From the NCBI RefSeq assembly GCF_036507355.1, contig NZ_AP027877.1: 64,000 nt of DNA; one strand, given 5' to 3'. This document shows positions 11,501 through 14,500 of this stretch, in pieces. The stretch is from Escherichia coli. Lineage in GTDB: Bacteria > Pseudomonadota > Gammaproteobacteria > Enterobacterales > Enterobacteriaceae. The stretch's first letter is position 1. Each line of letters starts with the position of its first letter. A program made the position numbers.

Positions 11501-14500
11501 AAACCATTACTCCTACTAATAGTAACTTCCATTGTTTAAACATCAGAATCCATATTAATCCAATGACTAACACGGAAAGCCAGGCCCCTCTGGATAAAGT
11601 TCCTAATATCAGAAAAATAAAAATAACGCTTAGAACCACAAAAGAAATGCGGTATTTTGCTGATTTGATAAGCCAGAGATTTAACAATGCAGGGAATAAA
11701 AAGACCATCGAGTCAGAAATGCTACGGTGTCTATAATCTGCGAATGGCATTATCCCTTGTTGATAGTCCTTATAATAGGCAATCAATTCAGAAAAACAGC
11801 GTAAGCCCAACGCACTAATAAATGAGAAGAAAACGATTTTTTCGACATCTTCTCTTTTCTCGTCTCTCAATATGACCGGTATTGCTATTGTGCATAGTAA
11901 AGTATTCTCAATAATAGCTTTGAAAATTTCCTTCATGCTAGCACCTGCATCAGGGGATTGAAGAAGTGACAGCAATGCAGCAATAGTTAATATGGCAACA
12001 CTACCAAAAAGAAATGTTTTAAATAGTGAGAGATAGTGTTTTGGCCGTTTGCAGAGATAGACGATTGTCGTTATTGTCATAAGAATAACAATAAGATGTT
12101 TATACCTTGTAATCCCACCCAAAAAATAGGTGGTAATGAATAAGAATACGAGAGCTCTGTTCCAGTACGCTATCCAGTTTTTTTTCTCGAGAGAGAAAAG
12201 TAATGTTGAGGTCATCTTATCTCCGATGTCAACTTATTGGTTATTATTTCAAGATTTAAATTTTGAAAAACGGTTTGAGCTGGCAAATCTACAAGAGACA
12301 TACTTGTAGAACGACACTCTACTTGATTCTTTCCATACCCGCCAATTAATCCCGGATCGGTAGGTCCATAAAACGTGATATTGGGTCTATCCAGTGCCGC
12401 CGTTAAATGGCTTAACCCTGTATCCACTGACACTACAAATTTAGCCCCGGCCAGCACGCGGGCAACGCCTTCCAGACTCATCTTAGGCAATACTTCAACA
12501 TAAGCAAATCCTTCCGCCAGTCGTTTCGCCCGTTCTTCCTCATGCGGCGCGCCCCACGGAAGTTTAATCCGTATTCCTGAATCAGCCAGTAAACCAATCA
12601 ATTCTCGCCAGTGTTCTTCCGGCCAGTGTTTATCATCACGGGTCGTCGCATGAAGAAATACGGCATATTCGCCAGCATCTGTAGGCAGGTTCGTCAGAAA
12701 ATGCTGTGCGATAGCATAATCGCCCTGGGTTTGCGGTTTGCTATAGCCCAAACTTTTGGCAAACAGTTCGCGGGTGCGTTCTACGGCGTGCTGCTGTTTT
12801 GCAATATGATGCTTACAATTGTAAAACAGGCTGGCTAAAGGTTCGCGAGCGGTTTGCCAGTCCATGCCATGCTTTACGCCATGCGCCAGACGCGTCACCA
12901 GCGCCGCGCTTTTTACCAGCCCCTGAGCGTCGATAACTGCGTCATAGTTCTCTGCTTGTAGCGCTTCACGAAACGCTTTGCGTTCCGCTTTTATGGGGGC
13001 CGAGAACCAGGCTTTACGCCAGCGACGTATTGCCACAGGAATAACTCGCTCAACGGCAGCGTGCCAGGAAGGAATCTGTGCGAACCCTTCTTCCACCACC
13101 CAGTCAAACTTAATCCCTGGGATTGCCTGCTGGGCATCAGTGAGTGCGGGCAACGTATGGAGAACATCGCCCATCGACGATGTTTTAACGATCAAAACCA
13201 GCATCCGTCAGGCTTCCTCTTGTAACAATAGCGCGTTGAGTTCTTCCAGTACGCGCTGGGGAGTAATGTCGATTAAGCTCTGGTGATAACCCTCCGCAGC
13301 GTCACCTTTACGCACTTTGTGATAGCCGGTAATCAAACGGATCACGCGCGCTTTATGGGATAGCGGCGGTGTGAAGTCCGGGCTACTCGGACCATACAGG
13401 GCAACCAGCGGACGATTGAGCGCCGCCGCAACATGCATCAGGCCAGAATCGTTAGTGACAATGGCTTTACAGGCTGCAATCAGGATAACCGCTTGATCAA
13501 GCTGTGTTTCCCCCGCCAGGTTCCGACACCATGCCTGCTGCTCGGTATTCAAAGCGGCAAGAATCTCATTGCCCGCTTCATGATCTTTCGCCGAGCCAAA
13601 CAGAACCACCTGATAACCTTCATCAATCAGCTGCTTTGCCAGCTCCGCATAGTGGTAGTGTGGCCAGCGTTTTGCCGGACCAAACTCCGCACCCGGGCAA
13701 AAACCAATCATCGGACGTTCTGATGAAAGCGAAAATTGATTACAGGTATATGATTTTTCACCTTCGCTCACCTGCAATTGCGGCCATAACAACGGTTTTG
13801 GTAGATCTTGTGCGGTACGCATCACGCCTTTGTCATAGGCCAGCGCGACATAGCGTTCCACCATTAGCGGCCAGGCTTCTTTATCGAGCACGCGTACATC
13901 GTTGAGTAAACCGTAGCGCATCTCGCCGCGCCAGCCGGTGCGATGAGGAATACCCGCGAAGAAAGGCACTAATGCAGATTTGAAGGAGTTGGGTAAGACG
14001 TAGGCGCGGTCGTAGCGCTTTTCACGCAGGCTATGACCCAGTTTGCGGCGTTCGCCGATTTCCAGCGCTCCGTGACCGAGAGGCATAGGGATAGCTTCGT
14101 TAACTTCCGGCATCCGCGATAATAATGGACGGCACCATGCCGGTGCCATCACATCGATTATCGCCTGGGGATAGCGCGCCTGGAGCGTGCGATAGAGACT
14201 TTGCGACATCATCATGTCGCCAACCCAAGACGGGCCGATCACCAGTATTTTCATGCAGAGCTCTTATGCGTCGCGATTCAGCCAGGCCATGTATTCCGTT
14301 ACACCTTCAGCAACGGTTTTGAACGGTTTGTCGTAACCCGCCGCGCGCAGATTTGTCAGATCTGCCTGAGTGAACGCCTGATAGCGGCCTTTCAGTTTAT
14401 CCGGGAACGGAATGTATTCGATCTGGCCTTTCTTGTGATAAGCCAGCGTAGCATCAGCTACAGCCTGGAAGGATTCCGCACGACCAGTACCGAGATTGAA

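What the first reader, a model, noticed from the sequence alone, without database searches (positions are those of the whole stretch)
12212..12260. Possible cassette breakpoint inside the 3' end of waaC
WaaC here is 330 aa and its stop overlaps the waaL start codon (ATGA). The last ~30 residues (...ECRSTSMSLVDLPAQTVFQNLNLEIITNKLTSEIR) do not look like the K-12 WaaC C-terminus I recall, and K-12 WaaC is shorter (about 319 aa). The exchange boundary of the variable outer-core and ligase block may therefore lie within waaC rather than in intergenic DNA, producing a strain-specific WaaC tail.
Basis: inference. Interest (0 to 1): 0.3.

Follow-up and report, generated by a model that had tools for sequence, protein, structure and literature searches.

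The report
Core-type junction inside waaC's 3' end
The last 36 codons of the LPS heptosyltransferase gene waaC belong to the exchangeable, low-GC R3 core-type block rather than to the conserved backbone, and one extra base makes the gene run on into the start of waaL; this is real but ordinary recombination mosaicism.

Summary
waaC (12212-13204, minus strand) encodes 330 aa and its TGA overlaps the waaL ATG (ATGA). K-12 WaaC has 319 aa, and the two proteins are near-identical up to residue 294 and dissimilar after it.

The edge of the variable waa block lies inside waaC, at codons 289-294 (window 12323-12341).
- Upstream, R3 and K-12 genomes can be identical: 0 mismatches over about 2.9 kb.
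- Downstream, nucleotide identity falls to about 48% and GC falls from 0.52 to 0.33.
- The tail is specific to the core type, not to the strain. It occurs in 1363 of 5426 complete E. coli genomes, the same number that carry this waaC-waaL block.
- K-12, R1, R2 and R4 each have their own tail.
- Among 81 Enterobacterales WaaC sequences, the tail is the least conserved part of the protein.

The extra 11 residues come from a separate event. Compared with an R3-like locus in an Escherichia cryptic lineage (WaaC 319 aa, then a 28-nt spacer), E. coli R3 has a 1-nt insertion in codons 318-319. Translation therefore passes the old TAATAA stop and reads the spacer, including the waaL ribosome-binding site. 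The structure model places residues 322-330 at low confidence.

This is an ordinary mosaic junction beside a polysaccharide locus. Interest is low.

The parts
12212..13204 (-). waaC (rfaC), heptosyltransferase I, R3-type allele, 330 aa plus TGA
   Evidence: ORF. NF008204 628.8 bits against a cut-off of 437. PDB 2gt1 E=1.7e-201. Exact protein is BED20329.1/WP_338387979.1, labelled E. coli.
12323..13204 (-). waaC body, codons 1-294: backbone DNA shared by all core types
   Evidence: 95.4-99.8% nucleotide identity among K-12, R1, R2, R3 and R4 representatives. Identity follows strain background, not core type. GC 0.52.
12323..12341 (-). Junction interval, between site 288.3 (polymorphic in all types) and site 294.3 (first R3-diagnostic site, CAA against CAG)
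   Evidence: Site table for 8 R3 and 5 non-R3 genomes. Megablast of non-R3 genomes ends at window 12324 or 12321. AH65 and K-12 are identical up to codon 290.
12254..12322 (-). R3-type tail, codons 295-317: diverged but homologous WaaC C-terminus (strand 294-298, start of the last helix)
   Evidence: 47-56% nucleotide identity to the other four tails. Not found by blastn in the 4063 non-R3 genomes. Same frame and near-identical in Escherichia sp. L007. GC 0.35. Model: strand 294-298, helix 309-319.
12248..12253 (-). Site of the 1-nt insertion (codons 318-319, CTT GAA) relative to the R3-like locus of Escherichia sp. MOD1-EC7003
   Evidence: DNA alignment of window and L007: AAATCTTGAAATAA against AAAT-TTTAGATAA.
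12215..12253 (-). Codons 318-330 (LEIITNKLTSEIR): frameshifted end plus the translated former waaC-waaL spacer
   Evidence: No counterpart in 80 other WaaC sequences. Residues 322-330 have pLDDT below 50.
12241..12246 (-). Vestigial tandem stop TAATAA, now out of frame. It is the waaC stop in L007.
   Evidence: Three-frame translation of 12205-12275. Alignment with L007.
12221..12224 (-). GGAG, the likely waaL ribosome-binding site, 5 nt before the ATG and now inside waaC codons 327-328
   Evidence: Sequence read directly. Conserved in the L007 spacer. Its function is inferred.
11007..12215 (-). waaL (rfaL), R3-type O-antigen ligase. Its ATG at 12213-12215 overlaps the waaC TGA at 12212-12214.
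   Evidence: ORF. NF012031 690 bits. RefSeq annotation of the same start in AH65, O157:H7 and O111:H8.
3700..12322 (.). Whole block diverged from K-12 (waaQ-G-P, outer-core genes, waaL, waaC tail). The left edge is in the waaA-waaQ intergenic region.
   Evidence: 100-nt identity profile against K-12: 1.00 at 3601-3700, 0.58 at 3701-3800, then 0.6-0.85 through waaQGP. Gene map by colinearity with 14EC033. The left edge is approximate.

Best explanation
The window carries the R3 core-type waa locus. Its type-specific, low-GC block runs from about 3700 (waaA-waaQ spacer) to 12322. It ends not at a gene boundary but inside waaC, after codon 294.

Upstream of that point waaC is ordinary backbone DNA, which recombines freely among E. 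coli. Downstream, the last part of WaaC (one strand and the C-terminal helix of the GT-B fold) is an anciently diverged allele that travels with R3 waaL.

The most likely reason for the position is as follows (inferred). Codons 279-294 encode GPTDPGLIGGYGKNQ, which is nearly invariant, and this is the last stretch with enough DNA identity for homologous crossovers. The tail after it is the least constrained part of the protein, so it tolerates any donor's version.

A second, separate event gave R3 E. coli its 330-aa length. A 1-nt insertion in codons 318-319 shifted translation past the ancestral TAATAA stop and through the 28-nt waaC-waaL spacer, including the waaL Shine-Dalgarno. Translation now ends at a TGA overlapping the waaL ATG. 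The 13 new residues are probably a functionally neutral, unstructured appendage. The overlap may couple waaL translation to waaC (inferred, not shown).
For: Shown:
- (1) The step in identity is sharp. Non-R3 genomes stop matching at window 12324 or 12321. AH65 (R3) and K-12 have 0 mismatches in 2000 nt upstream plus codons 1-290, then about 48% identity.
- (2) Linkage. The tail occurs in 1363 genomes, the same number that cover waaC plus waaL.
- (3) Composition. GC is 0.52 in the body, 0.33 in the tail and 0.36 in waaL.
- (4) Every core type has its own tail and length: 318, 319, 319, 323/326 and 330 aa. The body tracks strain background, not core type.
- (5) The tail is still WaaC. It keeps the conserved pattern C297, R298, L304, L307, V312. 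The NCBIfam profile aligns to residue 320. The model gives strand 294-298 and helix 309-319 at pLDDT about 88-92.
- (6) The tail is the least conserved segment among 81 Enterobacterales WaaC sequences: entropy about 2.5 bits, against 0.1-1.5 for most 15-residue blocks and 2.09 for one loop. It follows a run of invariant residues G280-Q294.
- (7) The indel. L007 (waaL 95% and waaD 96% identical at protein level) has WaaC of 319 aa ending ...VFEKLNFR*, a 28-nt spacer with the same GGAG, and the same waaL ATG. The window has one extra base, and TAATAA persists out of frame.
- (8) Polarity of the indel. The L007 ending resembles those of E. albertii (VFEKINF*), R2 (VFNKINS*) and K-12 (VLEKLSSL*). 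LEIITNKLTSEIR matches nothing in the other sequences.
- (9) The extension is labile and poorly modelled. Residues 322-330 have pLDDT below 50. Strain 14EC033 ends at K324 after a 1-nt deletion.
- (10) Junctions differ between lineages. K-12, R1, R2 and R4 share sequence up to codon 300. O157:H7 TR01 has a chimeric tail, R1-type to codon 310 and R3-type after.
Against: - The reason for the junction's position (limit of homology plus relaxed constraint) is inferred, not tested.
- Only 13 E. coli waaC sequences were examined base by base. The remaining genomes are known only from BLAST summaries.
- The indel comparison rests on one unshifted R3-like locus (L007), supported by ending similarity in other species.
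- TR01 and 14EC033 are single assemblies and could contain errors.
- No experiment shows that the extension is neutral or that waaL is translationally coupled.
- I could not read the primary core-type papers (Heinrichs et al. 1998; Amor et al. 2000), so I cannot say whether they already describe this junction.
Confidence: 0.85

Rival explanations
1. The tails are co-adapted with their core type. Under this reading, the WaaC C-terminal helix interacts with type-specific partners (WaaL or outer-core transferases), or the tail DNA carries type-specific signals for waaL expression. Selection, rather than the limit of homology, would then keep tail and cassette together.
For: Tail and R3 waaL are completely linked in 1363 genomes. 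The tail DNA contains the waaL ribosome-binding site and start in R3. All five types keep distinct tails.
Against: - WaaC acts on Kdo2-lipid A, which is common to all core types (established knowledge).
- The tail is the least conserved part of the protein across genera.
- The adjacency of tail and waaL explains their linkage without selection.
- TR01 carries a chimeric R1/R3 tail with an R3 cassette, and 14EC033 lacks the last 6 residues.
- In R1 and R4, waaL is on the other strand, so no coupling exists there.
Confidence: 0.07
2. The junction marks a recombination hotspot, such as a Chi site or another site-specific signal, at this point in waaC.
For: Junctions of several core types fall within about 50 nt, between codons 289 and 310.
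Against: There is no Chi octamer in either orientation anywhere in waaC. The nearest are at window 1491 and 34214. The junctions are not at one nucleotide: they lie at about codon 294 for R3, about 300 for the other types and 310 in TR01. No mobile-element remnants are reported in the locus (PMC8715443).
Confidence: 0.04
3. The tail diverged in place, by relaxed constraint or diversifying selection within E. coli, without exchange of foreign or ancient DNA.
For: The tail is weakly constrained in all Enterobacterales.
Against: - Identity of 47-56% next to 99-100% identity cannot arise in place within a species.
- GC drops to the cassette's level.
- The same tail is found in a different Escherichia lineage (L007), and a related one in a Citrobacter (L012).
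Confidence: 0.02
4. The tail is a strain-specific frameshift, a sequencing error or a decaying pseudogene in this one genome.
For: The window's WaaC has four private substitutions (R2L, R130C, V278F, A305V). One related genome is annotated as frameshifted.
Against: The 330-aa frame is shared by 7 of 7 other R3 genomes read. The tail DNA is 95% identical or more in 1363 genomes, and RefSeq annotates it as an intact rfaC.
Confidence: 0.01

Closest known systems
Hitch-hiking and mosaic junctions in genes flanking polysaccharide loci, for example gnd beside the E. coli/Salmonella O-antigen (rfb) cluster (Bisercic, Nelson and Selander, early 1990s; from my own knowledge, not checked here)
   Same: A conserved housekeeping gene next to a low-GC, highly polymorphic sugar-antigen cluster carries a segment that travels with the cluster. 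Abrupt intragenic junctions result from homologous recombination in the flank.
   Different: Here the linked segment is only about 110 nt, the weakly constrained C-terminal tail. It changes the protein's end and length rather than adding mostly synonymous polymorphism.
Exchange of E. coli LPS core types (K-12, R1-R4) by homologous recombination of the central waa region (Leclercq et al. 2021, PMC8715443)
   Same: Same locus and same proposed process. That paper treats waaDFC and waaA as core-genome GC flanks, describes a low-GC centre and finds no mobile-element remnants.
   Different: That paper never mentions waaC on its own and places no junction. Here the right-hand edge is mapped to waaC codons 289-294 and the left-hand edge to the waaA-waaQ spacer.
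R1-type WaaC (heptosyltransferase I) of known structure, PDB 2GT1, 2H1H, 6DFE
   Same: The same enzyme. The match covers residues 1-315 at E=1.7e-201, and the sequences are near-identical through residue 294. The predicted fold has the same terminal strand and helix.
   Different: The solved protein has the R1 tail, MVCRAPGNELSQLTANAVKQFIEENAEKAAMI (326 aa). The R3 tail shares only the C, R, L, L, V pattern and adds 13 residues derived from frameshift and spacer.
C-terminal extension by a frameshift that reads through into intergenic DNA, creating overlapping stop and start codons (ATGA)
   Same: A single-base indel removes the stop from the reading frame. The new end is set by the next stop, which overlaps the downstream gene's ATG. 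This is the classic arrangement for translational coupling.
   Different: Coupling was not tested here. The ancestral arrangement (28-nt spacer with the same GGAG) survives in L007 and presumably works as well.

Membership tests
Lipopolysaccharide heptosyltransferase I (WaaC/RfaC, GT9) | Scores above the curated cut-off of the equivalog model | tested here: met
   NF008204: 628.8 bits against a cut-off of 437, aligned over 1-320 of 322 profile positions. TIGR02193: 427.8 against 185.3.
Lipopolysaccharide heptosyltransferase I (WaaC/RfaC, GT9) | GT-B fold like the solved WaaC structure, with the family's conserved residues present | tested here: met
   2gt1/6dfe/2h1f at E about 1e-201. Model pLDDT 91.8. 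D13, K192 and D261 are invariant in 56 sequences and present in the window. Their catalytic role is from my own knowledge.
Lipopolysaccharide heptosyltransferase I (WaaC/RfaC, GT9) | Position in the gmhD-waaF-waaC operon | tested here: met
   ORFs at 14264-15196, 13208-14254 and 12212-13204, all on the minus strand. The order is colinear with the annotated genomes.
Lipopolysaccharide heptosyltransferase I (WaaC/RfaC, GT9) | Heptosyltransferase activity of this allele, which has the R2L, R130C and V278F substitutions | not testable with these tools
   Needs complementation of a waaC deletion or an enzyme assay.
E. coli R3 core-type waa locus | R3-specific waaL allele. Core typing is done by waaL allele (PMC8715443). 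| tested here: met
   waaC plus waaL is 97.8-99.3% identical to loci of O111:H8 and other strains, and the O157:H7 locus carries the same tail and arrangement. O157 is reported as preferentially R3. No named R3 reference sequence was available, so the label rests on that association.
E. coli R3 core-type waa locus | R3 gene order: waaQ-G-P, waaO/I, waaY, GT8, a GlcNAc transferase, then waaL on the opposite strand | tested here: met
   Window ORFs and NCBIfam hits. The order is colinear with AH65 and 14EC033. That this is the R3 order is from my own knowledge.
Mosaic recombination junction in a gene flanking a polymorphic polysaccharide locus | Abrupt, stepwise change of identity inside the gene | tested here: met
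   AH65 against K-12: 0 mismatches in about 2870 nt, then about 48% identity.
Mosaic recombination junction in a gene flanking a polymorphic polysaccharide locus | The divergent segment is linked to the cassette type, while the rest follows strain background | tested here: met
   The same count of 1363 genomes for the tail and for waaC plus waaL. Body site patterns are shared across core types.
Mosaic recombination junction in a gene flanking a polymorphic polysaccharide locus | Base composition changes at the junction | tested here: met
   GC 0.52 falls to 0.33.
Translationally coupled overlapping gene pair | Stop of the upstream gene overlaps the start of the downstream gene, with a ribosome-binding site inside the upstream gene | tested here: met
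   ATGA at 12212-12215 and GGAG at 12221-12224.
Translationally coupled overlapping gene pair | Translation of the downstream gene depends on translation of the upstream gene | not testable with these tools
   Needs reporter fusions with premature stops placed in the waaC tail.

The most novel reading that the evidence does not exclude
The core-type-specific WaaC tails are not neutral passengers. On this reading each tail is matched to its cassette, through contacts of the C-terminal helix with type-specific core-assembly proteins at the membrane or through tail-encoded control of waaL translation. Selection would then hold the cassette edge inside waaC, and tail swaps would impair core completion or O-antigen ligation.
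Probability: 0.06. Interest if true: 0.5.

Novelty: new member of a known kind. Interest (0 to 1): 0.2.

Why it matters
The practical consequences are modest.
- The junction marks where core-type exchange ends on the waaC side. This is useful for in-silico core typing, since the waaC tail predicts the core type as well as waaL does in the R3 case. It is also useful for designing flanking primers and for recombination-aware phylogenies.
- It explains why WaaC length differs between strains (318-330 aa), and why annotation pipelines sometimes flag R3 rfaC as frameshifted when only the dispensable-looking extension is affected.
- It is a warning for structure-based inhibitor work on WaaC. The solved structures carry the R1 tail, and the last 25-36 residues differ in other core types.

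It does not reveal a new mechanism.

Tried and rejected
- A search of the 5.8-billion-protein collection with the 42-aa tail returned only six short fragments. Full-length R3 WaaC sits in a 90% cluster represented by another protein, so the search said nothing about distribution or polarity.
- The cluster look-up was of limited use because cluster 1 mixes RfaC and RfaF. It did identify the window's WaaC as an E. coli protein seen on a single contig.
- Three literature searches and two papers read gave no description of a junction in waaC. Two further searches failed on a term shorter than 3 characters. Amor et al. 2000 was not held under the PMC id I recalled.
- Chi sites as a cause of the junction: none within about 10 kb.
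- Recent interspecies transfer of the R3 block between E. coli and Escherichia sp. L007: rejected. Identity is an even 92-98% across flank and cassette, with no step.
- The window being Shigella, suggested by only 99.1% best identity: not supported. The exact WaaC is recorded as E. coli.
- My own recollection of the K-12 tail was wrong. What I remembered is the R1 tail.

Full report
**What is at the coordinates**

On the minus strand, waaC runs from 13204 to 12212 and encodes 330 aa. waaL runs from 12215 to 11007 and encodes 402 aa. The two share ATGA at 12212-12215. NCBIfam identifies them as RfaC (628.8 bits, cut-off 437) and RfaL (690 bits). The neighbouring plus-strand genes are a GT8 transferase and a lipopolysaccharide N-acetylglucosaminyltransferase.

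By colinearity with annotated genomes, the gene order is: waaA (minus strand); waaQ, waaG, waaP, waaO, waaY, GT8 and the GlcNAc transferase (plus strand); then waaL, waaC, waaF and gmhD (minus strand). The same waaC-waaL block is in O111:H8, and O157:H7 carries the same tail and arrangement. O157 is reported as preferentially R3 (PMC8715443), so I call this the R3 core type.

**The observation**

K-12 rfaC encodes 319 aa. The window's WaaC differs from K-12 WaaC at 3 residues within 1-294. From residue 295 onward the two are unlike each other. The divergent stretch is 12212-12322, not 12212-12260.

**Where the break is**

- Megablast of waaL plus waaC against 5426 complete E. coli genomes gave full-length matches in 1363. 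In all the others the match ends at query 1318 or 1315, which is window 12324 or 12321.
- The 107-nt tail alone, searched with word-11 blastn, is found in 1363 genomes and in no others. Tail and R3 waaL are therefore linked, and the other tails are too different to align.
- R3 strain AH65 has no mismatch to K-12 across 2000 nt of gmhD/waaF and waaC codons 1-290. It then differs at 291.3 and 294.3, and at most positions from codon 295.
- Across eight R3 and five non-R3 genomes, the first site diagnostic of R3 is 294.3 (CAA against CAG; window 12323). The last informative shared site is 288.3 (window 12341).
- GC is 0.52 in codons 1-294, 0.33 in the tail and 0.36 in waaL.
- The opposite edge of the block diverged from K-12 lies at about 3700, in the waaA-waaQ spacer. 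One edge is therefore intergenic and the other is inside a gene.

**All core types, not just this strain**

Representatives of K-12, R1, R2 and R4 each have their own tail after ...GYGKNQ:

| Core type | Tail after residue 294 | WaaC length |
|---|---|---|
| K-12 | MVCRAPRENLINLNSQAVLEKLSSL | 319 aa |
| R4 | VVCRAPLMNLNNLEAAAVYKKITLI | 319 aa |
| R2 | VVCRAPDKDLAHLTAETVFNKINS | 318 aa |
| R1 | MVCRAPGNELSQLTANAVKQFIEENAEKAAMI (a second R1 strain has a shorter variant) | 326 aa (323) |
| R3 | VECRSTSMSLADLPAQTVFQNLNLEIITNKLTSEIR | 330 aa |

Nucleotide identity of the body is 95.4-99.8% and follows strain background. Tail identity is 47-56% between R3 and the others, and 58-69% among the others. 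The four non-R3 types share sequence up to codon 300 (...CRAP) and diverge after it.

**The tail is still WaaC, but weakly constrained**

- The tails keep the pattern C297, R298, L304, L307, V312.
- In an AlphaFold model (mean pLDDT 91.8), residues 294-298 form a strand and 309-319 a helix. Residues 322-330 fall below pLDDT 50.
- Solved WaaC structures (2GT1, 2H1F, 6DFE) carry the R1 tail.
- I extracted waaC from 80 other Enterobacterales genomes. Lengths range from 317 to 334 aa, and the tail is different almost everywhere.
- Mean column entropy is about 2.5 bits for residues 301-330. Most 15-residue blocks give 0.1-1.5 bits and one loop gives 2.09.
- Just before the tail, G280-Q294 is an almost unbroken run of invariant residues.

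I infer that this run is the last place where donor and recipient DNA are similar enough to cross over. I also infer that the tail tolerates whatever sequence comes with the cassette. I found no Chi octamer near the junction.

**Why this WaaC has 330 residues**

Escherichia sp. MOD1-EC7003 (L007) has an R3-like locus. Its WaaL is 95% and its WaaD-like protein 96% identical to the window's, and DNA identity is an even 92-98% across flank and cassette with no step. Its WaaC has 319 aa and ends ...PAQIVFEKLNFR*. A 28-nt spacer containing GGAG follows, and then the same waaL ATG.

The window aligns base for base with this region, except for a few substitutions and one extra nucleotide in codons 318-319 (12248-12253; AAATCTTGAAATAA against AAAT-TTTAGATAA). 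After the insertion the window reads L318 to R330 through the former stop and spacer. The old TAATAA survives out of frame at 12241-12246, and the waaL GGAG now lies in codons 327-328.

The L007 ending resembles other WaaC endings: E. albertii VFEKINF*, R2 VFNKINS*, K-12 VLEKLSSL*. LEIITNKLTSEIR resembles nothing in the set. The 330-aa form is therefore the derived one. All eight R3 E. coli genomes read have this frame.

**Natural variants that bear on function**

- O157:H7 strain TR01 has a chimeric tail: R1-type to codon 310 and R3-type afterwards. Its waaC body is almost identical to that of AH65 and K-12 (1 mismatch to AH65) and unlike other O157:H7 (7 mismatches). This suggests an imported flank with its crossover inside the tail.
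- Strain 14EC033 has a 1-nt deletion in codon 325, which stops WaaC at K324. PGAP labels the gene as frameshifted.
- R1 tails come in 323-aa and 326-aa versions.

If these assemblies are correct, they argue that the tail, and especially the extension, is tolerant of change.

**Comparison with what is known**

The process matches the known picture of core-type exchange by homologous recombination of the central waa region (PMC8715443). It also matches the older picture of mosaic, hitch-hiking flanks next to polysaccharide loci, such as gnd beside rfb (my own knowledge). I found no paper in the searchable library that places the junction in waaC or explains the R3 length. The primary core-type papers were not available.

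**Verdict**

I rate it a new, well-defined instance of a known kind, with low interest.

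Noticed in passing
window 32198-37316 (minus strand): A trimeric autotransporter adhesin gene (ESPR signal, YadA head, 13 stalk stretches, YadA anchor) is split into two overlapping ORFs: 36546-37316 (256 aa) and 32198-36586 (1462 aa, TTG start). This points to a frameshift near 36546-36586.
   Followed up: partly
window 34842-35617: 255-nt tandem repeats (about 2.6 copies, 85-96% matches) lie inside the adhesin gene. Chi octamers (GCTGGTGG) lie on the plus strand at 35087, 35342 and 35597, one repeat period (255 nt) apart.
   Followed up: no
window 1-25000 and waaC 12212-13204: The best match to any of 5426 complete RefSeq E. coli genomes is only 99.1% over 25 kb. WaaC carries four private substitutions: R2L, R130C, V278F and A305V. 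At the sites of the first three, the window differs from K-12 and from all six other Escherichia sequences checked. The exact protein is recorded on a single 4.64-Mb E. coli contig, BED20329.1.
   Followed up: partly
L094 (E. coli O157:H7 TR01) 1297-2289; corresponds to window 12212-13204: WaaC has a chimeric tail, MVCRAPGNELSQLTAK-TVFQNLNLEIITNKLTSEIR: R1-type to codon 310 and R3-type after. The waaC body is unlike that of other O157:H7. This is either a natural recombinant with its crossover inside the tail or an assembly artefact.
   Followed up: partly
L087 (E. coli 14EC033) 12213-13204; corresponds to window 12227-12229: A 1-nt deletion in codon 325 (TTG to TG) creates a TGA, so WaaC ends at K324. 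This removes the ATGA overlap, and RefSeq labels rfaC as a frameshifted pseudogene even though only the extension is affected.
   Followed up: yes
window about 3700 (waaA-waaQ intergenic region, 3619-4030): This is the left-hand edge of the block diverged from K-12. Identity is 1.00 at 3601-3700 and 0.58 at 3701-3800. waaQ, waaG and waaP are homologous to K-12 but only 60-85% identical.
   Followed up: partly
window 12323-12487 (waaC codons 240-294): Six of the window's eight body differences from K-12 cluster in codons 240-288. The states at 259.3, 262.3, 281.3 and 288.3 are each shared with some of the other Escherichia species checked (L007-L011). This hints at a different recombination history just upstream of the junction in this strain.
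   Followed up: partly
L090 (O157:H7 JEONG-1266) waaC codon 292: O157:H7 has K292E in the conserved GYGKNQ motif. The same E occurs naturally in Buttiauxella, Hafnia and Pantoea WaaC.
   Followed up: no
L010 (Escherichia sp. E1V33) and L009/L011 (E. albertii, E. whittamii) waaC tails: Other Escherichia species carry further mosaic tails. E1V33 has VVCMAPGKSLNNLNGQAVLEKLSSL, whose ending is K-12-like. E. albertii and E. whittamii have R2-like tails.
   Followed up: no
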